Positions 1 to 59,067 of a stretch of DNA of 62,174 bases are shown here, one piece after another (the first letter of the stretch is position 1; the number at the start of each line of letters is the position of its first letter). Under the pieces are notes generated by a model that saw nothing but the letters and a program-made list of their open reading frames with translations, was not told where the DNA came from and searched no databases. A program made the position numbers and the translations under genes. The DNA comes from Patescibacteria group bacterium (GTDB lineage: Bacteria; Patescibacteriota; Microgenomatia; Levybacterales; GWA1-39-11). The DNA is taken from assembly GCA_035549295.1 (NCBI GenBank), contig DASZRG010000026.1, positions 1 to 62,174 of the forward strand, read 5' to 3'.

Positions 1-3000
1 ATACTGAGACGTTGCCAGTGTCTGCACTTCCAAGTGTTAGATTCTGTTTGTTAGTTGTTGCGATTGTTCCATCACCTGTGATGTATAGAGCATTGTTTGG
101 TGTTGATCCTGAGATAGATGCTGTTGGAGTACCACCTGATATGTTAAGAACAGCAAATCGAGCGGAGCTCGTTGAGGTCCCGCCAAGCAAAAAGTCTTGA
201 GTCTGATTATTCTCAGCAATAACCGAACCGATCGATTGAAAAGGACTATCTGTGCTTCCCACAGGGCATGCAGCTGATCCAGTAACTATACCGTTTGAAG
301 TAGTTACACAAGCAGCTGAACCAACTGTAACACCGGCCAATCCATTCACGCTTAGGTTATTTGAAGGACCGACAACAAAATTGACATTGCCAGTATCTCC
401 TCCACCTAGCGTCAAAGTCTGACGATTGGTAGTTTGAAGAAATCCTGTGCCTGTTAGAAATGTTGCATTATCGGCAGTTCCCGCTGCAATTGATGCGGTT
501 GGAGTACCGACATTCATGTTAAGAACTGCGAAACGAGCGGAGCTTGTTGAAGTACCACCCAATGCAAAATCAACAGTGCTGATCGTTGGAATGATAAGAC
601 CATTTTTTCTTTCCCATATTTGGGTGTTGGCAGTTGAAACGTCAATCCATGAAAGGTGGCCAGCCGCATCCGATGAAAGGACATATCCTGCAAGCGTTGC
701 GTCTGATCCAGGCCAATTGTAAGTAACCCCATTCAATTGAGTTGAACCAATACCGACAAGATTGCCCGATGCGTCAATTCTCTGGGTTCCAGCACCGACT
801 CCAGTATTGATTCCAGTAGTACCATTGAGCGTTGTACCAGTTATGGTATTGCTGGTTGTGATAGTTCCAAATCCCACTGATATCATTCCAGATACAAGAT
901 TCCCGACCGATGTAAGGACTGAATTAACAACTGATCCGCCAAGTGTATTACTTGATAAAACACTGGCTCCGTTGATTTTGTAGGCTCCGCTGTTGGTCAA
1001 ATCTATGTTACCCGATGCATCCACATTAAAAACGGTAACACCGCTTGAGGAAGCGGTGATGATATTTTGATCCGAACCCGTATAGGAAAATACGGAAAGC
1101 GCCTGACCTGGCGGTGCGCCTTCTACTTCAAACTGTCCAATTGGATTTGTCTGCCCTATACCAAGCGCACCTTTTGCATCTATCGTAAGTGCGACTGCAT
1201 TATACAAGTCACTGATTGACGAATCAGCAAGATTGAAGCTTCCTGTGAACTTTGCAATTCTGTTTGTGTCACCGCTTCCACCTATACCGGCGCCGGTCCC
1301 AGAACAGTTGCCTGAAGTATCACAGATGGTTCTTGATCCCCAGAAGAGATCGCCTGTTGGTGCACCACCGGCTGCTGATGTATTGAGAACATTGTTGTTA
1401 CTCGCTGCTCCGAGCCTTATACCACCTGAGACATCGAGCTTTTGTGAAGGTGTGCCTGTTCCAATACCAACATTGCCGCCGCTTAAAGCTGTGATAGCAG
1501 CGCTACCCGCTGGCGCAATAACTATATCTCCCGTCGACGCGTCTCCAAGCGTGAATGTATTGAGGTTAGTTGTACCGATAGTTGGAGTTGAACCAGAAAG
1601 AGTTATGTTGCCAGCGATTGTTGCCGTTGGAGTACCGGAGTTGACATTGATGAAGCCAAACTTTGCCGATGCTGTGGAATTGCCACCGATGAGGACGTCC
1701 TGAGTCAAGATCTTTGGATACAAAGTCCCATTCGCACTATTCCAGGGTCCAATTCCTGTTGGATCAATCCACGTTGGATTGGCACCTGATCCATTTGTTG
1801 AAAGAATAAAGCCTGCTGTTGATGGGGCAAGTGCCGCCATCGTGCCTATGCCGTTGAAATAAGGAACTGCTCCTTGGACAATTGCTGAGAAGTCCTGGCC
1901 TGTACCGCCATACTGAGTGGTTATTGTATTGCCATTCCATGAACCGGCAGTAACTGCACCGCCATTTATAACAACTGAATCAAGAGAGATACTACCGGCA
2001 CCACCCCTTGGACTTAGGAAGATATCACCCGTTGTCGATCCTCCTATGGTGAGCTTGTTGCTAGCTGGTGTCTGAACCGATCCATCGGCTGATAAATATA
2101 TTCCTTGTCCTGATCCATTTTGAGCAGAAAGACTTGCGATAGGTGTTCCACCTGAAACGTTTAATACTGCAAACTTTGCGGAAGCAGTGCTGTTGCCACC
2201 AAGTATCAAGTCAAGCGTTGTAACTCCTGTGTATATCGACCCGTTTGAAACAACCCACTGCTCTGACCCAAGCTGACAAACACCGGTTCCTGTAACGATA
2301 CCGCCCGAGACAGTTACACAAGAAGGTGTACCCTGAGTTATACCAGCCGAACCGGCTGAGAAAAACGTTGATCCATATACGTTATTGAATTGGTCAGAGA
2401 GTGATCCAAGATCGTAAGCCTGATCGGCGTCTGGTCCAATAGATCCTGCAACTGTTAGTTTAAAAGGAGTTGTCGCTGTACCGATACCAACAGTGTCACC
2501 TGAATTTACAAGATTTACAACGCTTCCAGACTCTTGCCATGGGCTAGTTGATGCAACGATATTTGACGAAATAGTCAATGACTTTGCGCCAGTGTCGGCC
2601 GAAAGACTAATACCGCTTCCTGCTATGAAATTTAAAGTATCATTATTTCCACTAGCTGTTATAGTATCAGATCCAGTCACAATATTCTTAAATGTATCGA
2701 CTGATGGAGCACTAACTGTACTCGAAATGGTTGTTCCAGATATTGATATACCGGATCCTGCAGTAAGTGCTATCGCACCTGTTTGACCGCCAATCGAAAG
2801 AACACCCGTGTTGGTAATAATAGGATTTTGTCCGCCGGTAACTGAAATCCCAGCCCCAGCCGTCACGCTGTATATGACGTTTGACGCAGTTAGTTTTCCG
2901 GTTCCCGCATTGATATCGGCATTTTCTGTATCTATACCGCCAACTGCTGAGGTTAACCCCTGGATTTTTACGTTCTTAAGAAAACTAGCGTCTTCTTTGA

Positions 3001-3586
3001 AGAATGTTGGAATATTGAATTTGATTGTGAACATTGGCTGTCCGTCTGTGGCAGCTAAAACGCTCTCCCCTTTTCCGGATACTGACTCAGCAAATGTCTG
3101 CTGGCCTTGTGCTGTTTTAGTTTTGTTGGAGTTATTTGAAGTTATTGAGCTTGATAAGAATGTCTGTGTTAGAACAACAATCATGAAAACTGCTGCTAGA
3201 GTTGCAACGGCCGATAAGAGTAGCATGCGGACTGCTCGGTCCATTTTGAACTTGCTAGTTCGTGCAACTTCAGCCCTAATCTCTGAGTCAGCTACCAAAG
3301 CTTCGGTTATATTGAACGGCGCCTGAGGTGTCTCAATGATCTCTTGAGACGAAGGGGAGGCAGAAGAAACAGGAGCAATCGACGCGACGGCAACTGCCTT
3401 CTTCTCTTTTTTCTTTTCTATAAGCTTATCCCAAAAACCCGAGATCTGTGTTGCTGTATATCTTCTGTGGTTTCCGTCTGTTCTTTGGGGGACCAATATG
3501 CCCCTTTCTTCCCAGCGTCTTAGAGTCTTTGTAGATACTTTTAACTTCTTCGCGGCCTCTTGAATGCTTAATAATTTCTCGTCCAT
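1..3586 (-). CDS. Giant single-pass membrane fibre/adhesin-like protein with N-terminal MerR/excisionase-type HTH; C-terminus lies beyond the left window edge
   Basis: Not in the supplied ORF track. Manual minus-strand translation from the ATG at 3586-3584 stays open to nt 2 (about 1195 codons). It reads MDEKLLSIQEAAKKLKVSTKTLRRWEERGILVPQRTDGNHRRY (HTH_17/MerR-like), then a hydrophobic helix AVRMLLLSAVATLAAVFMIVVLTQTF (about nt 3172-3241). After that come G/T/S-rich repeats with the recurring unit LLGG(N/T)STxSA(K/R)FxVLNxxxGTPTASI. The + strand track ORFs at 12-3326 all share one frame and are antisense shadows. Confidence 0.8.
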   Translation of the reverse strand, partial: MDEKLLSIQEAAKKLKVSTKTLRRWEERGILVPQRTDGNHRRYTATQISGFWDKLIEKKKEKKAVAVASIAPVSSASPSSQEIIETPQAPFNITEALVADSEIRAEVARTSKFKMDRAVRMLLLSAVATLAAVFMIVVLTQTFLSSSITSNNSNKTKTAQGQQTFAESVSGKGESVLAATDGQPMFTIKFNIPTFFKEDASFLKNVKIQGLTSAVGGIDTENADINAGTGKLTASNVIYSVTAGAGISVTGGQNPIITNTGVLSIGGQTGAIALTAGSGISISGTTISSTVSAPSVDTFKNIVTGSDTITASGNNDTLNFIAGSGISLSADTGAKSLTISSNIVASTSPWQESGSVVNLVNSGDTVGIGTATTPFKLTVAGSIGPDADQAYDLGSLSDQFNNVYGSTFFSAGSAGITQGTPSCVTVSGGIVTGTGVCQLGSEQWVVSNGSIYTGVTTLDLILGGNSTASAKFAVLNVSGGTPIASLSAQNGSGQGIYLSADGSVQTPASNKLTIGGSTTGDIFLSPRGGAGSISLDSVVINGGAVTAGSWNGNTITTQYGGTGQDFSAIVQGAVPYFNGIGTMAALAPSTAGFILSTNGSGANPTWIDPTGIGPWNSANGTLYPKILTQDVLIGGNSTASAKFGFINVNSGTPTATIAGNITLSGSTPTIGTTNLNTFTLGDASTGDIVIAPAGSAAITALSGGNVGIGTGTPSQKLDVSGGIRLGAASNNNVLNTSAAGGAPTGDLFWGSRTICDTSGNCSGTGAGIGGSGDTNRIAKFTGSFNLADSSISDLYNAVALTIDAKGALGIGQTNPIGQFEVEGAPPGQALSVFSYTGSDQNIITASSSGVTVFNVDASGNIDLTNSGAYKINGASVLSSNTLGGSVVNSVLTSVGNLVSGMISVGFGTITTSNTITGTTLNGTTGINTGVGAGTQRIDASGNLVGIGSTQLNGVTYNWPGSDATLAGYVLSSDAAGHLSWIDVSTANTQIWERKNGLIIPTISTVDFALGGTSTSSARFAVLNMNVGTPTASIAAGTADNATFLTGTGFLQTTNRQTLTLGGGDTGNVNFVVGPSNNLSVNGLAGVTVGSAACVTTSNGIVTGSAACPVGSTDSPFQSIGSVIAENNQTQDFLLGGTSTSSARFAVLNISGGTPTASISGSTPNNALYITGDGTIATTNKQNLTLGSADTGNVSV

Positions 3587-4729
3587 TATGGGCAGTCTTT
3601 TAAGCCTTTCGACTTAAAAATAAATTCTGTTGTGAAAATCATGGACATTCAAAGCTGATTGTCCAATTTTTTTCTGTACATCCATAGTACTCATATTTTT
3701 CATACCGTGTCAAGCACTTTTCATAATAAAAAAACGCGATTTTTGAGGCTAAATGTCTAGTATTTTACTTTTCACGATAAATTCTTACAGAAAATCCTCA
3801 GAAATCTATAACTTTTGATATACTCTTTTTCCTAGATTTTTCACGGGATAGTGGAAATGCTATGGGATTGTAGAAGGGTATCAAAACATCAAGGGCCTGC
3901 CTTCCGGCAGGCAGGTATCAAAAGTATCAAGATTATCAGAAGTATCAGAAGCATCAGAGTTTCAGATAACAAGAAGTATCGGCTGGTCGGAGAATCAGGG
4001 GGTCTGATGGTCAGAGATTTCAGAGAATCAGAGAATCTAAGTGTTTCAGAGATCAGATAGTCGAAAAATCAGAAGAGCTAAATTAGTACTCGCGCTTCAC
4101 TCAGTGCAAGCAAAACAAGAGTTAACAAATAACCACCTAGACACCTGTGCTAGACAGAGCTATAAACCGTAGTCCGTAGTCGGTAAGCAGTAAGCATGGA
4201 TATTTGACGGTAGATTGCATACCTCACAGCAGATACCCAACTCCCCGCAATTACCACTATCTTTGCGGTTAATTTGCTATCACTCAAGACATCTCGAAGA
4301 CTTTGACCCACAAGTTATCCGCCGTTAAATACTTCACTGTTGAACTCTTTTACTGATAGACTGCTTAACCGCATAACTATTCTACAAAACCGCACTCTAT
4401 ACTCTATACTATAAGTTCTACTATAACTTGTCCTTTCACAACACTGTATCTTGTAGTATATCCTCCAGGATACCCACAATTATGTTATAGTTTTATTACA
4501 TACTTTAACGTTAATATCGGGACAAATAGCTTCATATGTCTAATTTTTACGCCATTATTTTCTCCACTTTTTGGGTCTTTTTAGTGATCAAAAAAACCTT
4601 TTTATCGAACTAAATTATTTATCACTCTAGATCGTGAAACGATAACTTTTTATTACTTTAGGACTATTTTGAATATTTGAATAATGAATAATGAAGAAAG
4701 AATAATGAACAAAGAGATACTAGAGACTA

Positions 4730-4765: not shown

Positions 4766-4926
4766 ACATTAGATACTAGGAATTACTTTTAGTGATTAGG
4801 ATTAAAAGAATTAGTGATTAGTATTTCTAGTGCATAGAACCTAGTACTTAGTGCTCAGTTAAAATACAAAAAAATGAACTATATTCTATTTCCTATGTAC
4901 TTGAGATTTGTTCGTGATACTTTTGA

Positions 4927-5748
<822 letters not shown>

Positions 5749-8582: not shown

Positions 8583-11001
<2,419 letters not shown>

Positions 11002-11013
11002 CCTCAAAAACGT

Positions 11014-11349
11014 ATGGATAACAAGATAAAAACACCACCCCAACCAGCAGTTGACCCCAAGTCAAAACAATTGATTCATGTAACAGTTCGTGACAAAAAT
11101 GGGATACTCGTAAATGATGACGTGAGGGCTGTTACGTCATACAATGACGTTGGGCTTTTTGATGTCCTACCATGGCATACCAACTTCATATCTCTTATCA
11201 GACAAAAGCTGGTGCTTCACAAAAAAGACGCGACAAATAAAGAGATGAAGGTAGGACTAGGACTACTCATGGTAACTGATAATGAAATTCACGTCTATTT
11301 GGGGCTTCCAGACGCCGCAGCCGCCGCGGCTTTATCGCAGAATAAATAA
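11014..11349 (+). CDS. atpC: F-type ATP synthase subunit epsilon
   Basis: 111 aa directly after atpD, with an N-terminal beta-sandwich-like sequence (VTVRDKNGILVNDDVRAVTSYNDVGLFDVLPWH). Confidence 0.8.
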   Translation: MDNKIKTPPQPAVDPKSKQLIHVTVRDKNGILVNDDVRAVTSYNDVGLFDVLPWHTNFISLIRQKLVLHKKDATNKEMKVGLGLLMVTDNEIHVYLGLPDAAAAAALSQNK

Positions 11350-13372: not shown

Positions 13373-14143
13373 CTTAAGAATTTTAGCAGATAGTCAAAGT
13401 AAATTAAATATCAAAAATCAAACCCGATTAAATCGCGTTCAAATATCAAAAACAAAACAAATAATGCTTAAAACTTTTCATGCGAGAATTCGTGCGTAAT
13501 ATTTCACAAAATCTTAGCAATTAATATACCTCTATTGCTAACAGAAAATTGGCCAATTAGACGAATAAGTATATCAAAGACAATCATTTAGCTTCGGGAA
13601 ATTCGGACGTCTACAGATAATCTCACCAAGTATTTTTATCGGTAAAGTAAGGGAAGTTGGGATAGTTTGGGAGATGAAAATGATAATTTTTGAGCTTGGG
13701 AAATTCTCAGAAACGCTTGTTTTTTCTTATCACAAACTTATCAAAAGATATTTTCACCATGCCTAACTTTTTACGAAATGAAGCTGGTGATATTATGAGG
13801 AAAATTGGTGAACATAAAATTTACATGCGAATTTTCTACAAATTTAAATAGTGCGAAATTTTGCGAATTGAGAGGTAGACAAGATGAAAGAATTACGAGT
13901 TAATTCTTAAATTGTTCATTTTAAAAATTAATTGGTAATTGGAAATTTGAAATTGGATATTCCCCTTTGATACTTTTGTTTACCCCGAACTAGATTCGGG
14001 AATACCTGTGATACTTTTGCTACCTTTCAAAAAAGGATTGGGACAGGATGAAGTGCGACGTGAAGTCGCGGCGGATCGATAGATCCACTTTTACATCACC
14101 CTGCCCCGGCACCTTATCTAGTTGCGAGAGTTTTCAGACCAGA

Positions 14144-21373: not shown

Positions 21374-21482
21374 GAAACCTGCCGGAAGGTATCAAAAGTA
21401 CCATAAGCATCAAGGATATCAAAAGCTAATCTCTGGATTAAAATATTGGTGGCATTGGTAGTAATTGTAGTATTATTAAACT

Positions 21483-26749: not shown

Positions 26750-26792
26750 TTGGGGTGAGGTAAGGAAATTAATCTGATACTCGTGATACTCT

Positions 26793-28686: not shown

Positions 28687-28803
28687 AAAACATAGCTCGT
28701 GATACTCTTGATACCTTTGATACCCGTGATACTTTTAAAATATGTGGGGGCGTTAAGTTGTGATCGAGTCGTAGACTCGACGAAACGGGTGCCCCCGAAC
28801 CCA

Positions 28804-30929: not shown

Positions 30930-31086
30930 TGTTTGTTCCCTAACTCCTTAAAGTGCTAAAAAACTTACACAGTAAACCCTGTGCTGGCTGATGGGAATTA
31001 TACAATTGACAACTGACAATTGACAACTGACAGGGAAGTAAAAGGTATCAAAAGTATCAAAGGTACCAGAAGTATCAAGGGGGTTT

Positions 31087-31378: not shown

Positions 31379-31591
31379 CTATTGTTCTGACTTGGCCTGT
31401 ATGCCGAGGAGGTACATAACTGCTTCTTTTTTATATCTTCTATCCCCTCTTGAATTAATTCTTATTGCAGGGAGCTTTCCGCGTTTTCCCCATCTTTTGA
31501 TAGTAAGTGGAGAAACTCTGAGAATCTCTGCGACTTCACGTACCGTAAGTAGATCTGGAAGGTTGCTGATTGATATATTTTGCTGTGGCAT
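31379..31591 (-). CDS. Small excisionase-family (HTH_17) DNA-binding protein
   Basis: MPQQNISISNLPDLLTVREVAEILRVSPLTIKRWGKRGKLPAIRINSRGDRRY. Track ORF 31379-31660 has a longer, unlikely N-terminus. Confidence 0.7.
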   Translation of the reverse strand: MPQQNISISNLPDLLTVREVAEILRVSPLTIKRWGKRGKLPAIRINSRGDRRYKKEAVMYLLGIQAKSEQ

Positions 31592-37872: not shown

Positions 37873-37960
37873 AAAGGTATCAAAAGTATCAAGGGTATCA
37901 AAAGTATCAAATGCTAATTAGCCCGTGATACTCGTGGTACACTTGGTACCCGTGATACCC
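37873..37960 (-). repeat. 88-nt intercistronic GTATC-word hairpin element (copy between RR1 and the kinase)
   Basis: AAAGGTATCAAAAGTATCAAGGGTATCAAAAGTATCA - 12 nt - CCCGTGATACTCGTGGTACACTTGGTACCCGTGATACCC. Near-identical in both arms to 38342-38429, but the 12-nt loop differs. Confidence 0.85.
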
Positions 37961-38341: not shown

Positions 38342-38429
38342 AAAGGTATCAAAAGTATCAAGGGTATCAAAAGTATCACAAGCAAATCTGCCCGTGATAC
38401 CCGTGGTACACTTGGTACCCGTGATACCC
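38342..38429 (-). repeat. 88-nt intercistronic GTATC-word hairpin element (copy between RR2 and RR1)
   Basis: Same length and arm sequence as 37873-37960. A third copy of the right arm lies at 15748-15786. Confidence 0.85.
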
Positions 38430-41468: not shown

Positions 41469-41596
41469 AGATTGAAGAATAAAGATTAAAGAACAAAAAG
41501 CAAATATATCTCCCCTATCCAATCTATTTGATATTTAATATCGTTTGGACACTTCATTCCACGATCGTGGAACCTTATGTCCAAAATATCATCTAG

Positions 41597-41611: not shown

Positions 41612-42088
41612 ATGCGAGAGATCGAGCCTGAAATTCACGACAGTCCCAAAAAACTACCTGCCACCAGATACGTCAGAACAACAGAACATCTTCGAGGCTT
41701 TGATGAAATCTATCAATTGACCTCGGGAAATAAAAGACTTGAGTTAATGATTGCCTATGAAGCAGATAGAATAAACGCCCAGACTCACCTTGGCACTATT
41801 GAAAACAAAGCTAAAAAAGACGGTTCAACTACGTCTTGCTATTTAGTAGCAAAAGATCTAATGCAAGAGTTAGCTTCGAAAAAAGGCATGCGGGTTGATT
41901 ATCTACTCGATACAACAGAGCCAAGCATGATTACTTGGGCTAGAACTGCTGGACTTGAAATATTCAATTTTTATGAAGCAAGCTATGGATGGAGCCCTAT
42001 CAAACACGCAATAAGATTCGTAGCCCGCGCGACAATCAACCCTGAGCAAGATTCTAAGGTAAGAGTTAGCGGAAATGAGAAGGGTTAA
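41612..42088 (+). CDS. Hypothetical protein
   Basis: 158-aa ORF with a leaderless-type promoter. No family recognised. Confidence 0.6.
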   Translation: MREIEPEIHDSPKKLPATRYVRTTEHLRGFDEIYQLTSGNKRLELMIAYEADRINAQTHLGTIENKAKKDGSTTSCYLVAKDLMQELASKKGMRVDYLLDTTEPSMITWARTAGLEIFNFYEASYGWSPIKHAIRFVARATINPEQDSKVRVSGNEKG

Positions 42089-54881: not shown

Positions 54882-55026
54882 CTTTATGAGATCGGTAAAT
54901 AATCAGTATAATATGTATAATCTTGAGGCTAGTATAAATTCAACAAATATTACGGTAATCTTCATCGTGAAAAACTATTCTATGGCTGGGTTTCACAAAA
55001 TAGGAAATATATTAACACTTTAAAAA

Positions 55027-58000
55027 ATGAGCAATATAGGACTCCAATTCAAAAGTTATCTCCTTGAGAAAAAAAAAGTTAGTCATATCACTCTCAAGAA
55101 TTATTCATCAGATATAAGCCGATTCCTCAACTGGTATTCACAATACTTTGGCGTAGAATTCAGGCCCGACAATTTTGACTCAAAACTAATTAAGCGCTTT
55201 GTTGATGAAATGAAAAATGGAGGCGATCCTATCGCACGGCCATCCGCTCGCTCACTCGAGAGATACATCTCCACTCTCAAAAGGTTTGCCGACTTTATGA
55301 TTGCGACAAACCTAATCGTTGAAAATCCTTTTGCAAGCGATGAAAACCGTTCGCAACAGGCAACAGATGAGTGGAAAATGCGCGGATTCAAAGACTTTTT
55401 ATATGTAAATGGCGCATCTCGAGCTACCATGAAAAACTATATAGTCGATATTAACGCGTTCACTACCTGGATCAGCCAGAGCTTTGACTTTTCAGATATT
55501 TCAGATCCCGCCGAGCTCCTCACTAATTCTGTTCTTGAGCAATATAAAGTACGTCTAAAAGAAGTCTTTAATCTGTCTCAAGCGAGCATAGACCGCAAGA
55601 TTTCATCGATTAGAAAGTACTTTAAATATGCTGGCCGAGAGACTGAACTACCTGTAAAAGAGTATCAGAAGTTTATCAACACTGCTAAAGCTGAAGTTAT
55701 TGTGCCTGAACCAATTGCTACAACTGCCGAAAACACGCTAACCATGGATAGTCTGCAGCTTGAGCCGGACCCTGTTATGACTAGCTACTCGCCTATTCCG
55801 CCTTTTAGACTTGTTCAAAAGCTACTTCTTCCCTATCTGCTTCTTGAGGAAATGATCTCTCACAAAATAGCACTTGGAGTACGCCGCAGACACCTTGAAA
55901 CATATATCAAAGCAGGCGAGCAACTGCCAAAACCCGATGTTAAAAATACTAACACTTTACTAAATAGACTTAAAAATAACCGCCCCATGTGGTACAAAAG
56001 GTATCACAATATGGCATTTACCAATTATTTACACCTCGCTATCCTTATTATATATGCGACTATTTTGAGCATGATCATGTATAGAAATATGTTTGACAAC
56101 AAAAACGGCGTCCAAGCATCAACTATTGCACCTCAGCGCGTATTATCCTTTCAGGGTCGCCTAACAGATAACAACGACAATCCTATCACCTCGACAACAA
56201 GTGTAAGATTTCAGATATACAATGACGCAAGCGCATCGGGCTCTGCCCTTCTCTGGCAGGAGGTCGATTCTGTAACACCCGATAACAACGGTATTTTCTC
56301 AGTTCTTCTTGGCTCAGGAAGCAATTGCAACGGCCAACCCCTCACATCGCAAACAACGCCATGCGCAATTCCCCAAGATCTCTTTGGAACTCATGACAAT
56401 TTGTATTTGGGTATTGCGGTCCAGACAACTGCCGAGCTGACCCCTCGCCAAAAGATCGCAACTGTTGCCTATGCTGCCAACAGTGAGTCTGTACAAGGAA
56501 TGCTTCCCACAACAGACTCAAACGCCGGGCAGACAAATGTAATTCTTGCACTAGACTCATCTGGCAATCTAACGATAGGCGGGTCAGCTAATCCTACTTT
56601 TTCCGCGTCCGGCGGACAATTCAAGCTTTCTGGACAACCAATAGTTCTTGCAACCAACCCTGGCTCAAACGGCGATATTCAGCTAATACCTGACGGAACT
56701 GGAAAAATAGATGCAGAAGCTCCACTCGTAAACAATGGCACATCAGGAATAGTTACCCCAGGTGGCGTTGAGGTCGATGACCGGTTTGGAGTAATTGCAA
56801 CAGAGTCATCTGTCGCTGCCTTTATCGTTAATAACAATACAACAGGCGGCGATATATTTGCTGCATCATCAAGCGGCACTACTCGCTTCGTACTACAAAA
56901 CACTGGTGATATAAGCATTCAACCAGGAGCCTCAATTGATACATTAAGTATAGGTTCGATATCTATTGGTGGAACTAATGCTAGCACTATTTCGCTTGGC
57001 CGAATCGGTCAAGGAATAAGATTTCCAGGTTTCTCGGTACAAAACGGTGTTTTATATGATGAATATGGGACTGGCAATCTGCAGCAGGTAACAACATTTA
57101 CTCCTAACCAATGTCTTTTGTCAGGACCATCAAATCCATATTGGGGAGACTGTTCGCTATCCGGAAGCAGCGCTTTCTGGAATCAGGTTAATGGTGCACT
57201 ATCCCCCAACAATTCGACCGTCGACTTTCTCGTTGGCGGACAGTCAAGCGCCTCTGCTAAGTTCTCGGTAACGAACGTGAACTCTGGCACGCCAACTGCT
57301 AGTATCTCGGGTAATCTGATTGTCATGCCTAATGTTTCAAACTCAAGTGGTGGAAATGTAGGAATAGGTGTGGCTTCGCCAACTCATACGCTTGAACTCT
57401 GGAACGACGATGCTGCCAAATCTCTTACAACAACTTGGACTGTCACATCTGACGAGCGAACCAAGACTAACATCCAGTCATTTAACGACGGACTTGCCGT
57501 CATAGATCAAATAGATCCAGTCACTTTTACATATAATGGTCTCGGAGGGACTATAGCAGGTGCATCTGGGATCGGAGTAATCGCACAAGACATACAAAAA
57601 GTTGCTCCATATACAGTTGGTACATTTCAAGCAAAACTCAACCCAAATGATACAAATGAGACAACTCTACTCGATTTCAATCCCCACGCTCTTTTCTTCA
57701 TAACTATTAACGCGATTAAAGAGCTTGATGCAAAAATTGGCGCGCTTTCCCAGAATGTCGTGACTCAAGCAATTTCTGCCGGACAAGTCTCAGCGCAAAG
57801 CCTTAACGTCGCAACGAATTCAATTACTATTGCTGGTGTTAACCTAAAAGACTATATTGCAGAAGTCGTAGCAGAACAGCTCGGAACGAGTCAACTAGTT
57901 TCACCTCTTGCATCGACCAACCAAGTTAAGACAAACGTCATCTCACCACTTGCTGATGACTCGCATATTTCAATTGGACTTGATAAATCAAAAGTAACTA

Positions 58001-59067
58001 TCCATGCAACTGAAGCATCAGGTTCTGCCGTTGTCGCATCGATAGATAATTCAGGCAACGCCACATTCTCTGGAAGTCTCACTACTGCATCTGCTTCAAT
58101 CTCAGGAAACCTAACAGCAGCTGGCGATGCAACCGTTGCAGGCACATTGTATGCAAACAATATACAGGCGAGCTCAATAGAGGGACTTGATGATAGGATT
58201 AAATCTATCACGCAGGCAAACGACGGGTTCAACAATGTATCAAGACAAGCTATTTCAAACTACCATACAGAAATTGCATCCGAATCCGCTGGTCTTATCG
58301 CAAGCATCAACAACCAAGACGGAATTGTCGTCGGGCATTTCATTGATATTCAGAATCTATCTGCCGACTTTGGCACCTTTAGACAAGGCCTAACTGCACT
58401 CGGCCCATCTACATTTGCCGAGGCAAGTGTCTTGGGGACTTTGAGCGTTGGCAACAATATGACTTTTGACCAAAACTCTATCAACACTTACGGCACCGAT
58501 CTTGCAATACAACCTCTGAAGCAAGGTGCGGTTGACTTCCTGGCTGGTGCCGTCCGAATCGAGACCGATGGAACACTCAAAGTTTCAGGCAATGCATACT
58601 TTGCCTCAAACGTCACGGTTGGCGGCAATTTAAATACAAACGTCATCTCTCCTCTATCAAATAGCAAGCCGCTAACAATTACAAACTCAAAACCATCCGA
58701 TGGTGAAACAGGACTTGAAACCGATGACCACACATTACTTAACGTACAAGGTTCAGCCTCGGTATCAGGATCTCTTACTCTTGGCAAACTCAATTTCCCC
58801 CTCGTTGCACCAGCCTATGCAGTGTCTGATGTAGAGGTTGTCGCAACGGGATCTGCCGGCATGACAACTCTCAAGCAATACAGAACCGAAGTAACTATAG
58901 ATAACCCTATCGTAACAGATCATTCTCTTATATACATCTCGCCAGTCGGGCCATCAAACGACCAGTCGCTCTTCCTCATGCGCCAAGTCCCCGGAAAGTC
59001 ATTTACAGTTGGCGTCAATTCCCAAGCAATAAGCGACATCAATTTCAATTGGATAATCGTAAATTAG
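55027..59067 (+). CDS. Giant single-pass membrane fibre protein: two N-terminal tyrosine-recombinase core-binding (SAM-like) domains, TM helix, tail-fibre-like repeats, internal peptidase-S74 chaperone module
   Basis: FKSYLLEKKKVSHITLKNYSSDISRFLNWY...RSLERYISTLKRFADFM...NPF and FKDFLYVNGASRATMKNYIVDINAFTTW...IDRKISSIRKYFKY are core-binding-domain-like. TM helix AFTNYLHLAILIIYATILSMIMY at nt 56014-56082. VDFLVGGQSSASAKFSVTNVNSGTPTASISG matches the repeat unit of the gene at 1-3586. TSDERTKTNIQ...VTFTYN...GVIAQDIQKVAPY...INAIKELDAKIGAL is S74-like (nt 57440-57750). Confidence 0.85.
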   Translation: MSNIGLQFKSYLLEKKKVSHITLKNYSSDISRFLNWYSQYFGVEFRPDNFDSKLIKRFVDEMKNGGDPIARPSARSLERYISTLKRFADFMIATNLIVENPFASDENRSQQATDEWKMRGFKDFLYVNGASRATMKNYIVDINAFTTWISQSFDFSDISDPAELLTNSVLEQYKVRLKEVFNLSQASIDRKISSIRKYFKYAGRETELPVKEYQKFINTAKAEVIVPEPIATTAENTLTMDSLQLEPDPVMTSYSPIPPFRLVQKLLLPYLLLEEMISHKIALGVRRRHLETYIKAGEQLPKPDVKNTNTLLNRLKNNRPMWYKRYHNMAFTNYLHLAILIIYATILSMIMYRNMFDNKNGVQASTIAPQRVLSFQGRLTDNNDNPITSTTSVRFQIYNDASASGSALLWQEVDSVTPDNNGIFSVLLGSGSNCNGQPLTSQTTPCAIPQDLFGTHDNLYLGIAVQTTAELTPRQKIATVAYAANSESVQGMLPTTDSNAGQTNVILALDSSGNLTIGGSANPTFSASGGQFKLSGQPIVLATNPGSNGDIQLIPDGTGKIDAEAPLVNNGTSGIVTPGGVEVDDRFGVIATESSVAAFIVNNNTTGGDIFAASSSGTTRFVLQNTGDISIQPGASIDTLSIGSISIGGTNASTISLGRIGQGIRFPGFSVQNGVLYDEYGTGNLQQVTTFTPNQCLLSGPSNPYWGDCSLSGSSAFWNQVNGALSPNNSTVDFLVGGQSSASAKFSVTNVNSGTPTASISGNLIVMPNVSNSSGGNVGIGVASPTHTLELWNDDAAKSLTTTWTVTSDERTKTNIQSFNDGLAVIDQIDPVTFTYNGLGGTIAGASGIGVIAQDIQKVAPYTVGTFQAKLNPNDTNETTLLDFNPHALFFITINAIKELDAKIGALSQNVVTQAISAGQVSAQSLNVATNSITIAGVNLKDYIAEVVAEQLGTSQLVSPLASTNQVKTNVISPLADDSHISIGLDKSKVTIHATEASGSAVVASIDNSGNATFSGSLTTASASISGNLTAAGDATVAGTLYANNIQASSIEGLDDRIKSITQANDGFNNVSRQAISNYHTEIASESAGLIASINNQDGIVVGHFIDIQNLSADFGTFRQGLTALGPSTFAEASVLGTLSVGNNMTFDQNSINTYGTDLAIQPLKQGAVDFLAGAVRIETDGTLKVSGNAYFASNVTVGGNLNTNVISPLSNSKPLTITNSKPSDGETGLETDDHTLLNVQGSASVSGSLTLGKLNFPLVAPAYAVSDVEVVATGSAGMTTLKQYRTEVTIDNPIVTDHSLIYISPVGPSNDQSLFLMRQVPGKSFTVGVNSQAISDINFNWIIVN

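What the first reader, a model, noticed from the sequence alone, without database searches (positions are those of the whole stretch)
1..3586. Second giant fibre gene, missed by the ORF track, with an excisionase/MerR-type HTH as its cytoplasmic head
Manual minus-strand translation gives an open frame of at least 1195 codons. It begins with an HTH_17-like motif closely resembling the stand-alone Xis-like protein at 31379-31591 (LLSIQEAAKKLKVSTKTLRRWEERG versus LLTVREVAEILRVSPLTIKRWGKRG). One TM helix follows, then the same fibre repeat unit as in 55027-59067. Two paralogous fibres therefore each carry a different recombination-module DNA-binding domain at the N-terminus. This points to a recurring design rather than a chance fusion.
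Basis: partly seen in the sequence, partly recalled or inferred. Interest (0 to 1): 0.7.

Follow-up and report, generated by a model that had tools for sequence, protein, structure and literature searches.

The report
Giant surface fibre with DNA-binding head
The left end of this window encodes a giant, membrane-anchored surface fibre of an ultra-small (Patescibacteria) bacterium. Its cytoplasmic tip is a BldC-type DNA-binding domain that most likely binds a conserved repeat at the start of its own gene, so an adhesin and a gene regulator appear to be joined in one protein.

Summary
Window 2-3586 (minus strand) is one open frame of 1195 codons that runs off the contig end. It encodes a MerR-type HTH (Pfam E 8e-14), an S/P-rich linker, one TM helix and then a G/T/S-rich fibre. 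The fibre shares a repeat unit with the paralogue at 55027-59067.

The design recurs. I found 318 loci in species-representative genomes, all named ones Patescibacteria (Microgenomates, one Saccharimonadales). Of the best 80, 79 are long ORFs or ORFs cut by the contig end, and all with enough sequence have a single TM.

The head is closest to BldC, not to an excisionase, and BldC's DNA-contact residues are kept. The context is chromosomal (ATP synthase operon), not a recombination module.

New here: these genes carry a conserved operator-like repeat (AAAAnTTGGACA, inverted or tandem) at the transcription start. It is present in 68/79 loci. A sister clade with a different recognition helix (VSIDT) carries TGCATAG instead (43/66, against 2/79 in the main clade). 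HTH-less fibre paralogues lack the motif.

Best reading: a membrane-tethered, self-regulating transcription factor whose sensor is a giant fibre. DNA binding, the sign of regulation and any signal are inferred, not shown. I found no paper describing this.

The parts
2..3586 (-). Partial CDS, 1195 codons with the C-terminus missing at the contig end: BldC-like HTH, linker, TM, giant fibre.
   Evidence: No stop codon in frame. The identical protein, P0001, is on record with MerR Pfam hits.
3443..3574 (-). Cytoplasmic MerR/BldC-type winged HTH (residues 5-48).
   Evidence: Pfam MerR E 7.9e-14. Family profile against PDB: BldC 6AMA E 4.8e-12. AF2 pLDDT 86.7 and top Foldseek hit BldC-DNA complex. 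BldC's DNA-contact residues are conserved as K20, T21, R24, W25, H40, R41 and R42.
3230..3442 (-). Low-complexity linker (residues 49-119), probably a flexible tether.
   Evidence: No domain hit. In homologues the length from wing to TM varies from 24 to 150 aa (median 61) and the linker is rich in S, P, T and E.
3161..3229 (-). Single transmembrane helix (residues about 120-142), N-terminus in the cytoplasm.
   Evidence: Kyte-Doolittle 19-residue window up to 2.77, preceded by KFKMDRAVR. Across the family the net charge is +2.05 before the TM and +0.92 after it, and there is no second hydrophobic segment in 75/75.
2..3160 (-). Extracytoplasmic fibre (residues 143-1195), rich in G, T, S, A and N. 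It has a conserved base (VLAAT...FNIPTFF..., then AGxGI repeats) and four copies of the W..NG...GG.STASAKF...GTPTASI unit.
   Evidence: Composition and motif positions. BLASTP to the paralogue E 1e-16. The paralogue's matching stretch hits phage tail-fibre phrog_1980 at 1.2e-18. Full-length homologues carry Peptidase_S74, and one carries collagen repeats.
2117..2260 (-). Fibre repeat unit 1 (residues about 443-490).
   Evidence: Motif scan.
1601..1747 (-). Fibre repeat unit 2 (residues about 614-662). This copy aligns best with the paralogue.
476..619 (-). Fibre repeat unit 3 (residues about 990-1037).
101..244 (-). Fibre repeat unit 4 (residues about 1115-1162).
3684..3714 (-). Sigma-70-type promoter: CTTGACA (3714-3708), 18 nt, TACTAT (3689-3684).
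   Evidence: Best promoter-like site in the region, 10 of 12 matches. CTTGACA is present upstream of 54/81 family genes against 1 in the background. Coordinates.
3641..3666 (-). Candidate operator: inverted repeat TTGGACA-N12-TGTCCAt with an A-tract flank. It begins 47 nt after the start of the -35 hexamer, so it lies at or just after the transcription start.
3742..3760 (-). Upstream composite element CTAGACAtttAGCCTCAAA (a third half-site plus an AGCCTCA box).
   Evidence: The same composite lies at -101 to -149 from the start codon in the closest relatives: L004, L005, L010, L013, L015, L046, L048 and L050.
55027..59067 (+). Paralogous fibre gene (1346 aa): two Phage_int_SAM_1-like domains, TM, Bdello_MAT_N-like stretch, shared repeat unit, Peptidase_S74.
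31382..31591 (-). Stand-alone 70-aa BldC/Xis-like HTH protein, 43% identical to the fibre head.

Best explanation
The gene encodes a type II (N-in) single-pass membrane protein of a Microgenomates-group (Patescibacteria) bacterium.

A giant fibre of more than 1050 residues projects from the cell. It resembles a phage tail fibre and is probably trimeric. A flexible cytoplasmic tether of about 70 residues ends in a BldC-type winged HTH.

The head binds AAAAnTTGGACA half-sites. These sit as an inverted pair (or, in relatives, as tandem arrays with a 10-12 bp period) at the transcription start of the protein's own gene. The protein is therefore a membrane-tethered, autoregulatory one-component transcription factor. 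Because the site lies downstream of the promoter, it most likely represses its own synthesis.

Shown: the architecture, its recurrence, the fold and conserved DNA-contact residues of the head, the conserved operator-like repeats with their fixed position, and their switch together with the type of recognition helix.

Inferred: that the head, rather than another factor, binds these repeats; that binding represses; that the fibre is a trimer.

Speculative: that fibre engagement, loss or clustering changes DNA binding, which would couple surface contact or fibre turnover to expression.
For: 1. Architecture.

2. Recurrence.
- 57 of 100 fibre homologues carry the MerR head.
- 318 loci were found in GTDB species representatives.
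- Of the best 80, 68 are ORFs of at least 500 aa, 11 run off a contig end early and 1 is short. Every one with enough sequence has one TM 75-230 aa from the start.

3. The head is BldC-like.
- Profile E 4.8e-12 to 6AMA/6AMK.
- AF2 pLDDT 86.7.
- Foldseek TM 0.69-0.75, 36-40% identity, rmsd 1.6-2.3 to BldC-DNA complexes.
- BldC's base- and groove-contact residues K26, R30, W31, H46, R47 and R48 (PMC5859096) correspond to K20, R24, W25, H40, R41 and R42. R24 is invariant, and R23, W25, R41 and R42 are at least 90% conserved in the family.

4. Cis element.
- An unbiased 7-mer count in the 400 bp upstream gave TTGGACA in 60/81 loci (background 3), TGTCCAA in 42/81 (background 1) and CTTGACA in 54/81.
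- 134 of 301 TTGGACA occurrences in 722 kb fall in the 300 bp upstream of the start, which is 3.3% of the sequence.
- 52 of 66 inverted repeats lie within 150 bp upstream of the start.
- The spacer is 10-14 nt. The repeat begins 33-48 nt after the start of the -35 hexamer, in two classes (34 and 44-47) one helical turn apart.

5. Covariation.
- Loci whose recognition helix reads VSIDT[LV]RRW have TTGGACA in 2/66, against 68/79 for VSTKTLRRW (Fisher p 1.4e-26).
- They have TGCATAG/CTATGCA in 43/66, against 2/79 (p 1.5e-17). It takes the form of an inverted repeat at the same place in the promoter, or of direct repeats.
- Both HTH types occur at the orthologous position next to the ATP synthase operon, each with its own motif: the window and L002 against L083 and L086.

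6. Short HTH-TM proteins of the VSIDT clade, which have no fibre, also carry TGCATAG repeats in their own promoters. The HTH and the motif are therefore the constant pair.

7. HTH-less fibre paralogues lack TTGGACA (0/3). One of them (L170) has a divergent stand-alone HTH_17 gene plus a 3x ATGCAATAGT array in the shared intergenic region, a 'split' version of the fusion.

8. Precedent: BldC binds 2-4 direct repeats head-to-tail, with the consensus AATTNNNN(C). AAAT-TGGA-C fits that frame.
Against: - There is no experimental evidence of DNA binding.
- The two HTH clades are also two lineages, so the motif switch could in principle track another lineage-specific regulator.
- The window's own second half-site is imperfect (TGTCCAt).
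- The inverted repeat would also fold as an RNA hairpin in the leader (the window's leader folds with z = -3.0), so an RNA-level role is not excluded for loci of the inverted-repeat type.
- Other conserved elements also sit in these promoters: GATAAGA direct repeats, GTGAAAA/TTTTCAC and AGCCTCA. More than one factor may therefore act, and the head could bind one of those instead.
- The logic of a repressor that stays tethered to the membrane is unclear unless something relieves it.
- Trimerisation is inferred only from homologues. This protein's C-terminus is missing, and the AF2 monomer model of the fibre was uninformative (pLDDT 47).
- The start codons of homologues were taken as the first Met in the ORF.
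Confidence: 0.6

Rival explanations
1. The head acts as an architectural tether between DNA and membrane, not as a regulator. It pins the chromosome, or the gene's own locus, to the membrane at the base of the fibre. This would resemble RacA (a MerR-like wHTH that anchors the chromosome), or the way ToxR tethers DNA to the membrane. Any effect on transcription would be secondary.
For: RacA is among the structural matches (5I44/5I41, TM 0.67-0.71; profile E 1.6e-05). ToxR is reported to work by tethering DNA to the membrane (PMC10629549, title and significance statement). Short tail-anchored HTH-TM proteins without any ectodomain exist in the sister clade, which suggests that membrane attachment of the HTH is itself the selected feature.
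Against: The sites are few (2-5), lie almost only at the protein's own promoter, and sit at a fixed distance from the -35/-10 elements. That is the pattern of an operator. It is not the pattern of a centromere-like or dispersed anchoring site.
Confidence: 0.15
2. The HTH is a protein-binding adaptor, not a DNA binder, as in RodZ. RodZ has a cytoplasmic HTH, one TM and an external domain, and its HTH binds MreB. On this view the TTGGACA repeats are either bound by a different factor or act in the mRNA, for example as a 5' stem-loop that stabilises a very long transcript.
For: The layout HTH, linker, TM, ectodomain is that of RodZ (this rests on my own knowledge, not on a tool). The inverted repeat folds as a hairpin in the window's leader, z = -3.0. 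Other conserved promoter elements hint at additional regulators.
Against: - All DNA-contacting residues of BldC are conserved.
- The repeat arms are conserved in sequence and show no compensatory change.
- In about 20 loci the half-sites are tandem direct repeats, which cannot form a hairpin.
- The half-site changes together with the recognition helix.
- The HTH is MerR-type, not the XRE-type of RodZ.
Confidence: 0.12
3. One reading: the heads (Xis-like HTH and integrase SAM-like domain) are parts of a recombination module. They would act in site-specific recombination, for example switching or inverting fibre genes or their promoters.
For: HTH_17 passes Pfam's threshold (29.7 bits against 27). 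PHROGs lists excisionase families for the head (E 1.4e-07 to 3e-05). The paralogue's head is the core-binding domain of tyrosine recombinases. The operator is an inverted repeat.
Against: - None of the neighbouring genes scanned is a recombinase, and the region is housekeeping.
- The excisionase model TIGR01764 is below its cut-off.
- The best sequence and fold matches are to BldC.
- 7-bp arms with a 10-14 bp spacer at a fixed position in the promoter look like an operator rather than a recombinase core site.
- The SAM-like head lacks the catalytic domain.
Confidence: 0.05
4. Artefact: a chimeric assembly or a sequencing error fuses a small HTH gene to a fibre gene.
For: The gene lies at a contig end, and repetitive fibre genes break assemblies. 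Most homologues are 'partial'.
Against: The same continuous ORF is seen in at least 68 independent assemblies from many studies and in full-length proteins of 1346-1947 aa. An in-frame Met just before the TM is not conserved (10/76).
Confidence: 0.01

Closest known systems
BldC (Streptomyces; PDB 6AMA, 6AMK), founder of the small MerR-like wHTH family
   Same: It is the best sequence and fold match to the head. The wing RT.G(G/N)(H/Q)RRY and the recognition-helix residues K, T, R and W that contact DNA are shared. The head has no MerR effector domain. The candidate sites include tandem direct repeats of 2-5 units and an A/T tract next to a YpG step, as in BldC's AATTNNNN(C).
   Different: BldC is a free 68-residue protein. 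Here the domain is the N-terminus of a membrane protein of more than 1195 residues. The score against the curated NCBIfam BldC model is 31.8 bits, with a cut-off of 77. The commonest site arrangement here is an inverted pair two helical turns apart, which has not been described for BldC.
ToxR-like membrane-integrated one-component regulators (ToxR, CadC, TcpP, PsaE, VtrA)
   Same: They have an N-terminal cytoplasmic DNA-binding domain, a linker, one TM and an external domain in a single polypeptide that binds DNA while in the membrane (PMC6320335, PMC10629549). This is the closest match for how the protein would work.
   Different: Their DNA-binding domain is OmpR-type, not MerR/BldC-type. Their external part is a small periplasmic sensor domain, not a fibre of 1000-2000 residues. 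They activate other operons rather than (apparently) sitting on their own promoter.
MYRF (animal membrane-bound transcription factor with a phage tailspike ICA/Peptidase_S74 domain; PMC3742443)
   Same: It is a type II membrane protein that combines an N-terminal DNA-binding domain, one TM and the trimerising, self-cleaving chaperone domain of phage tailspikes. Full-length homologues of the window protein carry Peptidase_S74.
   Different: In MYRF the S74 domain lies on the cytoplasmic side, between the DNA-binding domain and the TM, and its self-cleavage releases the DNA-binding trimer. Here it lies far out in the external fibre, so its cleavage could not free the head. The DNA-binding domains are unrelated (Ndt80 against MerR). 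This protein's own C-terminus is unknown.
Phage tail fibres and Bdellovibrio mosaic adhesive trimer (MAT) fibres
   Same: The paralogue that shares the repeat unit hits tail-fibre PHROGs (E 1.2e-18), Peptidase_S74 and the NCBIfam Bdello_MAT_N model (E 9.7e-10, below its cut-off). The composition is G/T/S-rich and repetitive.
   Different: Those fibres are anchored to a virion or to the cell surface through protein adaptors. I know of none with a cytoplasmic DNA-binding head and a TM anchor. The window protein itself has no significant fibre-family hit outside its own family.
RodZ and RacA
   Same: RodZ has the same layout of HTH, TM and external domain. RacA is a MerR-like wHTH that anchors DNA to the cell envelope.
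   Different: RodZ's HTH is XRE-type and binds MreB. RacA is soluble, is held at the pole through DivIVA (my own knowledge, not a tool result) and binds its DNA sites as a symmetric dimer (PMC5859096).

Membership tests
MerR superfamily winged HTH (Pfam PF00376 / PF13411) | Sequence match above the curated threshold. | tested here: met
   PF00376: 51.6 bits against 28.2. PF13411: 44.3 bits against 21.6.
MerR superfamily winged HTH (Pfam PF00376 / PF13411) | wHTH fold: strand, helix-turn-helix, two-strand wing, helix. | tested here: met
   AF2 pLDDT 86.7 with elements E5-7, H8-14, H19-28, E41-44, H45-61. Every one of the 50 listed Foldseek hits is a MerR-type domain.
Classical MerR regulators | C-terminal antiparallel coiled-coil dimerisation helix plus an effector-binding domain. 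| tested here: not met
   The MerR_1 match covers only profile positions 2-43 of 69. After residue 61 come a low-complexity linker and a TM.
BldC family | Curated NCBIfam model NF033787 above its cut-off. | tested here: not met
   31.8 bits against a cut-off of 77. BldC is nevertheless the top PDB match by profile and by fold.
BldC family | A small stand-alone protein consisting of the wHTH only. | tested here: not met
   The domain is fused to a linker, a TM and a fibre of more than 1050 residues.
BldC family | Conserved DNA-contact residues (K26, T27, R30, W31, H46, R47, R48). | tested here: met
   The alignment, with residue roles, gives K20, T21, R24, W25, H40, R41 and R42.
BldC family | Cooperative head-to-tail binding to direct repeats. 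| not testable with these tools
   Only circumstantial: tandem TTRGACA arrays with a 10-12 bp period in about 20 homologous promoters.
Excisionase / recombination directionality factor (TIGR01764, HTH_17) | Curated excisionase model above its cut-off. | tested here: not met
   TIGR01764: 21.7 bits against 28.8. The broader Pfam HTH_17 passes narrowly, 29.7 bits against 27.
Excisionase / recombination directionality factor (TIGR01764, HTH_17) | A partner integrase and a mobile-element context. | tested here: not met
   The neighbours scanned are ATP synthase subunits, OMP decarboxylase (pyrF-like), a WecG/TagA-family glycosyltransferase and two-component genes. None of them is a recombinase. 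The synteny is shared with Levybacteria contigs.
ToxR-like membrane-integrated transcription regulators | The order: cytoplasmic N-terminal DNA-binding domain, single TM, external C-terminal domain. | tested here: met
ToxR-like membrane-integrated transcription regulators | OmpR/PhoB-type winged-helix DNA-binding domain. | tested here: not met
   The domain is MerR-type.
MYRF-type self-cleaving membrane transcription factors | An ICA/Peptidase_S74 domain between the DNA-binding domain and the TM, on the cytoplasmic side. | tested here: not met
   There is no S74 hit in the 1195 residues present. In full-length homologues S74 lies 1000-1600 residues after the TM, in the external part.
Trimeric tail-fibre-like adhesins with a C-terminal intramolecular chaperone | A Peptidase_S74 / IMC domain near the C-terminus. 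| tested here: inconclusive
   The C-terminus is missing from the contig. The domain is present in the paralogue (residues 808-864) and in homologues P0014, P0071, P0072, P0077 and P0078, but absent from the complete homologue P0036.
Trimeric tail-fibre-like adhesins with a C-terminal intramolecular chaperone | Trimeric beta-structured fibre fold. | tested here: inconclusive
   The AF2 monomer model of residues 150-560 reached pLDDT 47. No multimer tool was available.

The most novel reading that the evidence does not exclude
The protein is a one-polypeptide 'touch-to-transcription' device of ultra-small episymbiotic bacteria. A trimeric, tail-fibre-like adhesin spans the envelope, and its three cytoplasmic BldC-like heads sit on the operator of its own gene. 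Engagement of a host cell, or breakage, loss or clustering of the fibre, changes occupancy of the operator. Surface contact or fibre turnover would then be read out directly as transcription, without a two-component system. The same principle would be reused with interchangeable heads: a single or tandem MerR HTH, or a tandem integrase SAM-like domain, each matched to its own operator.
Probability: 0.25. Interest if true: 0.85.

Novelty: new variant of a known kind. Interest (0 to 1): 0.72.

Why it matters
Patescibacteria (CPR) are ubiquitous, and the cultured ones live attached to other microbes, yet how they sense and hold on to hosts is largely unknown. This family joins two things in one protein: a probable host-contact fibre and a DNA-binding head that appears to read its own promoter.

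If the link is real, three things follow.
- It gives a direct, testable route from the cell surface to gene expression in organisms with very few classical regulators.
- It extends the BldC type of DNA binding to membrane proteins.
- It supplies a natural pair of matched head and operator specificities (STK with TTGGACA, SID with TGCATAG), useful for dissecting how this fold recognises DNA.

It also corrects annotation. Hundreds of giant surface proteins are currently named 'MerR family transcriptional regulator, partial'.

Tried and rejected
- GATAC arrays. I first suspected that the 9-bp TTGATACnn arrays near the gene (3915-3955) were the head's operator. I rejected this because such arrays are absent from the promoters of all homologues (0 loci). 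They are a genome-wide feature of this contig.
- Internal start. An internal translation start just before the TM, which would give an HTH-less fibre, is rejected. A Met there is present in only 10 of 76 homologues.
- Prophage or recombination-module context: rejected.
- Fibre structure. The AF2 monomer model of the fibre segment, residues 150-560, reached pLDDT 47, so I made no fold search on it. The full alignment A1 was too large for structure prediction.
- Paralogue's head. The search for homologous proteins with the paralogue's N-terminal 368 residues returned nothing at E <= 1e-5. The recurrence of the SAM-like head therefore rests on three hits.
- Rfam: only two tRNAs in the window.
- Representative search. 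The hmmsearch of representatives ranks by summed score, so it is dominated by proteins with several HTH copies. It gives family size (3838 clusters at E <= 1e-10) but no clean count of single-head fibres.
- Literature. The searches found no description of this architecture. The library lacks most subscription journals, so this absence is not proof.

Full report
**1. Observation**

The minus strand of window 1-3586 translates into 1195 codons without a stop. The other five frames contain 24-85 stops. The frame opens at ATG 3586 and leaves the window at its left end. The ORF listing omits ORFs that run off an end, which is why the gene is not listed. The protein is on record as P0001, on a contig as long as the window. 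The C-terminus is therefore lost to the assembly, not to the window.

Pfam finds a MerR-type HTH at residues 7-43 (E 7.9e-14), MerR_1 (1.9e-11) and HTH_17 (8.1e-07), all above their curated cut-offs. A single hydrophobic helix follows at about residues 120-142 and is preceded by KFKMDRAVR.

The remaining 1050 residues are 15% G, 13% T, 12% S and 8% N. They contain four copies of the unit W..NG.L.P..T.D.L.GG.STASAKF.V.N..GTPTASI. The same unit aligns with the protein of 55027-59067 (BLASTP E 1e-16 and 5e-10). That paralogue starts with two Phage_int_SAM_1 domains (E 2e-20) and one TM helix, and carries Peptidase_S74 at residues 808-864. The stand-alone HTH at 31382-31591(-) is 43% identical to the fibre's head.

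**2. Origin and context**

The gene lies divergent from an F-type ATP synthase operon. The rest of the window holds housekeeping and signalling genes: OMP decarboxylase (pyrF-like), a WecG-type glycosyltransferase, a histidine kinase, receiver proteins and two tRNA-Thr genes. None of the neighbouring genes scanned is an integrase or a phage gene.

The closest homologues come from Levybacteria and other Microgenomates. The Levybacteria homologue P0004 sits in the same position next to the ATP synthase operon. The lineage is Patescibacteria group, Microgenomates group.

**3. Recurrence**

Of the 100 best homologues of the whole protein, 57 carry the MerR head in front of 700-2090 residues. Three carry the SAM-like head (P0043, P0081, P0089). 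Many of the others begin directly with a TM or signal-anchor helix.

I scanned 185,579 species-representative genomes with the head's most conserved peptide, [VI]Sx[KN]TLRRW[ED]. This gave 318 confirmed loci. Every record with an informative name is from Patescibacteria: Levy-, Woese-, Ames- and Shapirobacteria, Microgenomates and one Saccharimonadales. Of the best 80 loci, 68 are ORFs of at least 500 residues, 11 are cut early by a contig end and one is short. Every ORF with enough sequence has exactly one TM helix 75-230 residues from the start.

Full-length relatives of 1346-1947 residues end with Peptidase_S74 200-350 residues before the C-terminus. One of them also has collagen repeats. 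The paralogue's shared region hits phage tail-fibre families (phrog_1980, E 1.2e-18). The fusion is therefore a stable, widespread design, and the external part is a tail-fibre-like, probably trimeric, structure.

**4. What kind of head**

A profile of 35 family heads finds BldC (6AMA/6AMK) as the best solved relative (E 4.8e-12), ahead of classical MerR proteins, GlnR/TnrA and RacA. The AF2 model (pLDDT 86.7) is a wHTH, and its top Foldseek match is the BldC-DNA complex (TM 0.69-0.75, 36-40% identity).

The BldC residues reported to contact DNA are K26 and R30 (bases), T27 and W31 (backbone and kink) and H46, R47 and R48 (wing in the minor groove) (PMC5859096). In the alignment they correspond to K20, T21, R24, W25, H40, R41 and R42. 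These positions are invariant or at least 90% conserved across the family.

There is no coiled-coil or effector domain, only a linker rich in S, P, T and E that measures 24-150 residues in relatives. The curated excisionase model is not reached (21.7 bits against 28.8). Neither is the curated BldC model (31.8 bits against 77). The head is thus a divergent BldC-like domain that looks fit to bind DNA. It is not an excisionase.

**5. A conserved operator-like element**

I counted 7-mers, with no prior expectation, in the 400 bp upstream of 81 family genes. TTGGACA was present in 60 (3 in a control region), its complement TGTCCAA in 42 (1) and CTTGACA in 54 (1).

The layout is constant:
- a CTTGACA-N17/18-TAnnAT promoter;
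- then, in the leader, either TTGGACA-N10-14-TGTCCAA or tandem TTRGACA units with a 10-12 bp period;
- often a further half-site upstream of the -35 element.

Across 722 kb of fetched loci:
- 134 of 301 TTGGACA copies lie in the 300 bp before the start codon, which is 3.3% of the sequence;
- 52 of 66 inverted repeats lie within 150 bp before the start codon.

The inverted repeat starts 33-48 nt after the first base of the -35 hexamer, so it lies at the transcription start. It falls into two classes (34 and 44-47) one helical turn apart. The half-site logo is AAAAnTTGGACAwTT (132 sites). An A-tract beside a TpG step is the kind of site BldC reads (AATTNNNN(C)).

In the window the elements are as follows:

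| Element | Coordinates (minus strand) |
|---|---|
| -35 CTTGACA | 3714-3708 |
| -10 TACTAT | 3689-3684 |
| TTGGACA | 3666-3660 |
| TGTCCAt | 3647-3641 |
| CTAGACAtttAGCCTCAAA | 3760-3742 |

**6. Does the head bind it?**

Four observations link the motif to the HTH rather than to fibre genes in general.

(a) A sister clade has VSIDT[LV]RRW in place of VSTKTLRRW in the recognition helix. I collected 66 of its upstream regions from metagenomes and from contigs of homologues. TTGGACA occurs in 2/66 of them, against 68/79 in the main clade (Fisher p 1.4e-26). TGCATAG/CTATGCA occurs in 43/66, against 2/79 (p 1.5e-17). It takes the form of an inverted repeat at the same place in the promoter, or of direct repeats.

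(b) Both clades occur at the orthologous position beside the ATP synthase operon, each with its own motif: the window and L002 against L083 and L086.

(c) Short HTH-TM proteins of the sister clade, 125-260 residues long and without a fibre, also have TGCATAG repeats in their own promoters.

(d) Three fibre paralogues without an HTH have no TTGGACA. One of them (L170) instead has a divergent small HTH_17 gene and a threefold ATGCAATAGT array in the shared intergenic region, which is a split version of the fusion.

The caveat is that the two clades are also two lineages, so the statistics are not phylogenetically independent.

**7. Mechanism**

Shown: the architecture, its recurrence, the head's fold and conserved contact residues, the repeats, their position and their covariation with the head.

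Inferred:
- the head of the membrane-anchored protein binds the repeats at its own transcription start;
- because the site lies downstream of the -10 element, binding represses the gene, giving negative autoregulation of a very costly protein.

A flexible tether of about 70 residues, in a cell only a few hundred nanometres across, makes contact between a membrane-held head and the chromosome plausible. This has been shown for CadC and ToxR (PMC6320335, PMC10629549).

Speculative: trimerisation of the fibre brings three heads together (two leader half-sites plus the site upstream of the -35). Fibre engagement, loss or proteolysis then relieves repression.

I put the architecture at about 0.95, binding to the gene's own promoter at about 0.65, and the full statement at 0.6.

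**8. Rivals**

- The head could be an architectural tether between DNA and membrane (like RacA, or ToxR-style tethering), confidence 0.15. The operator-like number and position of the sites argue against this.
- The head could be a protein adaptor as in RodZ, with the repeats serving another factor or folding as an mRNA hairpin, confidence 0.12. The window's leader does fold significantly (z = -3.0). However, the arms are conserved in sequence, about 20 loci have tandem repeats that cannot pair, and the motif switches with the recognition helix.
No recombinase was found among the neighbours scanned, and the sites look like operators.
- An assembly artefact is excluded by at least 68 independent assemblies.

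**9. Comparison with known systems**

The protein would work like the ToxR/CadC class of membrane-integrated one-component regulators. It is not a member, because the DNA-binding domain is MerR/BldC-type and the 'sensor' is a giant fibre.

It shares a striking parts list with animal MYRF: a DNA-binding domain, a TM and the phage tailspike S74 chaperone (PMC3742443). The S74 domain is on the other side of the membrane, though, so MYRF's release mechanism cannot apply.

The head is BldC-like but fails two defining features of that family: it is not a small free protein, and it does not reach the curated model score. Six full-text literature searches found no description of this architecture. Public records call these proteins 'MerR family transcriptional regulator, partial'.

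**10. Verdict**

The label 'excisionase/recombination module' is not.

The added value is the conserved, head-specific operator at the gene's own transcription start. It turns a curious domain fusion into a concrete, testable model of a self-regulating, membrane-tethered fibre. I classify it as a new variant of a known kind (membrane-integrated transcription regulators), with interest 0.72.

Noticed in passing
window 3915-3955(-), 4916-4929(+), 13968-14023(+), 21389-21402(-), 26776-26789(+), 28701-28734(+), 31045-31076(-), 37877-37908(-), 38346-38377(-): Arrays of 2-4 tandem 9-bp units TTGATACnn: 21 matches to GATACTTTTGATAC at up to 2 mismatches, against 0.76 expected. Nine clusters lie between the ORFs called in the window. 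Upstream of the histidine kinase gene and of one receiver gene, each array faces an inverted array (GGGTATCACGGGTACCAAGTGTACCACGAGTATCACGG). A 9-bp period with 2-4 copies is what BldC-type proteins bind, and the stand-alone BldC-like protein at 31382-31591 is a candidate binder. The arrays are not found at the fibre promoters of homologues in other genomes.
   Followed up: partly
window 54906-54931: The leader of the paralogous fibre gene (SAM-like head) holds GTATAATatGTATAATC followed by TTGAGGCTA. The same tandem GTATAATnnGTATAAT plus GGCT is found upstream of two of three other SAM-head fibre genes (L167, L168). It could be this head's own operator, or simply tandem -10 boxes.
   Followed up: partly
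window 41545-41584: A perfect TTGGACA-N26-TGTCCAA inverted repeat, with an inner palindrome TTCCACGATCGTGGAA, lies just upstream of a TATAAT box and of the 158-aa gene 41612-42088, which has no Pfam hit. It is a possible second target of the fibre's head in this genome.
   Followed up: partly
window 10990-11008(+) and 3742-3760(-): Two copies of the composite T(T/A)GACA-www-AGCCTCAAA, in opposite orientation, bracket the ATP synthase operon. One lies upstream of the fibre promoter and the other just before the last ATP synthase gene (11014-11349). The AGCCTCA box also occurs near other genes and in both fibre families' leaders.
   Followed up: partly
window, e.g. 24644, 34526, 39180, 41612, 45931: Several of the 13 start sites inspected have TATAAT 7-10 nt before the ATG, and none has a Shine-Dalgarno sequence. 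This suggests that transcripts are largely leaderless in this organism. The MerR-fibre gene is an exception: it has a leader of about 100 nt, a conserved CTGCC(C) 3-8 nt before the ATG (41/79 family genes) and a second perfect hairpin at 3598-3619.
   Followed up: partly
L139, L146, L149, L159, L166 (metagenome loci): These are short 'tail-anchored' proteins of 205-263 aa that consist only of the BldC-like HTH, a linker and a C-terminal TM helix. Membrane-tethered HTHs therefore exist without any ectodomain. Other short members of this clade, without a detected TM (L144, L147, L162, L164, L165), carry TGCATAG direct repeats in their own promoters.
   Followed up: partly
P0101, P0103, P0106 and others; P0002, P0008, P0036, P0037, P0062, P0078: Proteins exist with 2 to 12 tandem copies of this HTH, for example 8 copies in 623 aa and 12 in 1015 aa. 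Several fibres carry two tandem heads. Concatenated heads would fit head-to-tail binding to arrays of direct repeats.
   Followed up: no
L170 486-1000: This is a 'split' version of the fusion. An HTH-less 1991-aa fibre gene has a divergent 94-aa HTH_17 gene, and the shared intergenic region holds a threefold ATGCAATAGT direct repeat.
   Followed up: partly
window residues ~176-200 of the fibre (nt ~2987-3061) and homologues: A motif (S/A)VL(A/G)A(T/S), followed by P.F.F.VN.P..F, is conserved about 30-45 residues after the TM in both HTH-bearing and HTH-less fibres (V27 and L28 are invariant in A4). It marks the start of the conserved fibre base. It could be a processing or attachment site.
   Followed up: no
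window 55027-59067: In the paralogue, and in full-length homologues, Peptidase_S74 is followed by a further 200-480 residues. In the phage fibres I know of, the chaperone is at the very C-terminus. Self-cleavage there would release a sizeable distal piece.
   Followed up: no
record titles of L004-L082; window contig CAZMXU010000061.1: Many TPA_asm MAG records that carry this Patescibacteria-type gene are titled 'uncultured Gammaproteobacteria bacterium' or 'uncultured Pseudomonadales bacterium'. Their gene content and closest homologues point to Microgenomates, so the titles look like mislabels.
   Followed up: no
homologous promoters (L016, L019, L025-L028, L032-L034, L037, L043, L045, L047): Direct repeats GATAAGATTAT(x2), with an 11-bp period, lie immediately upstream of the -35 element, often with inverted copies further upstream. 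14 of 15 occurrences in 722 kb lie within 300 bp of a MerR-fibre start. This is a second family-specific cis element whose binder is unknown.
   Followed up: partly
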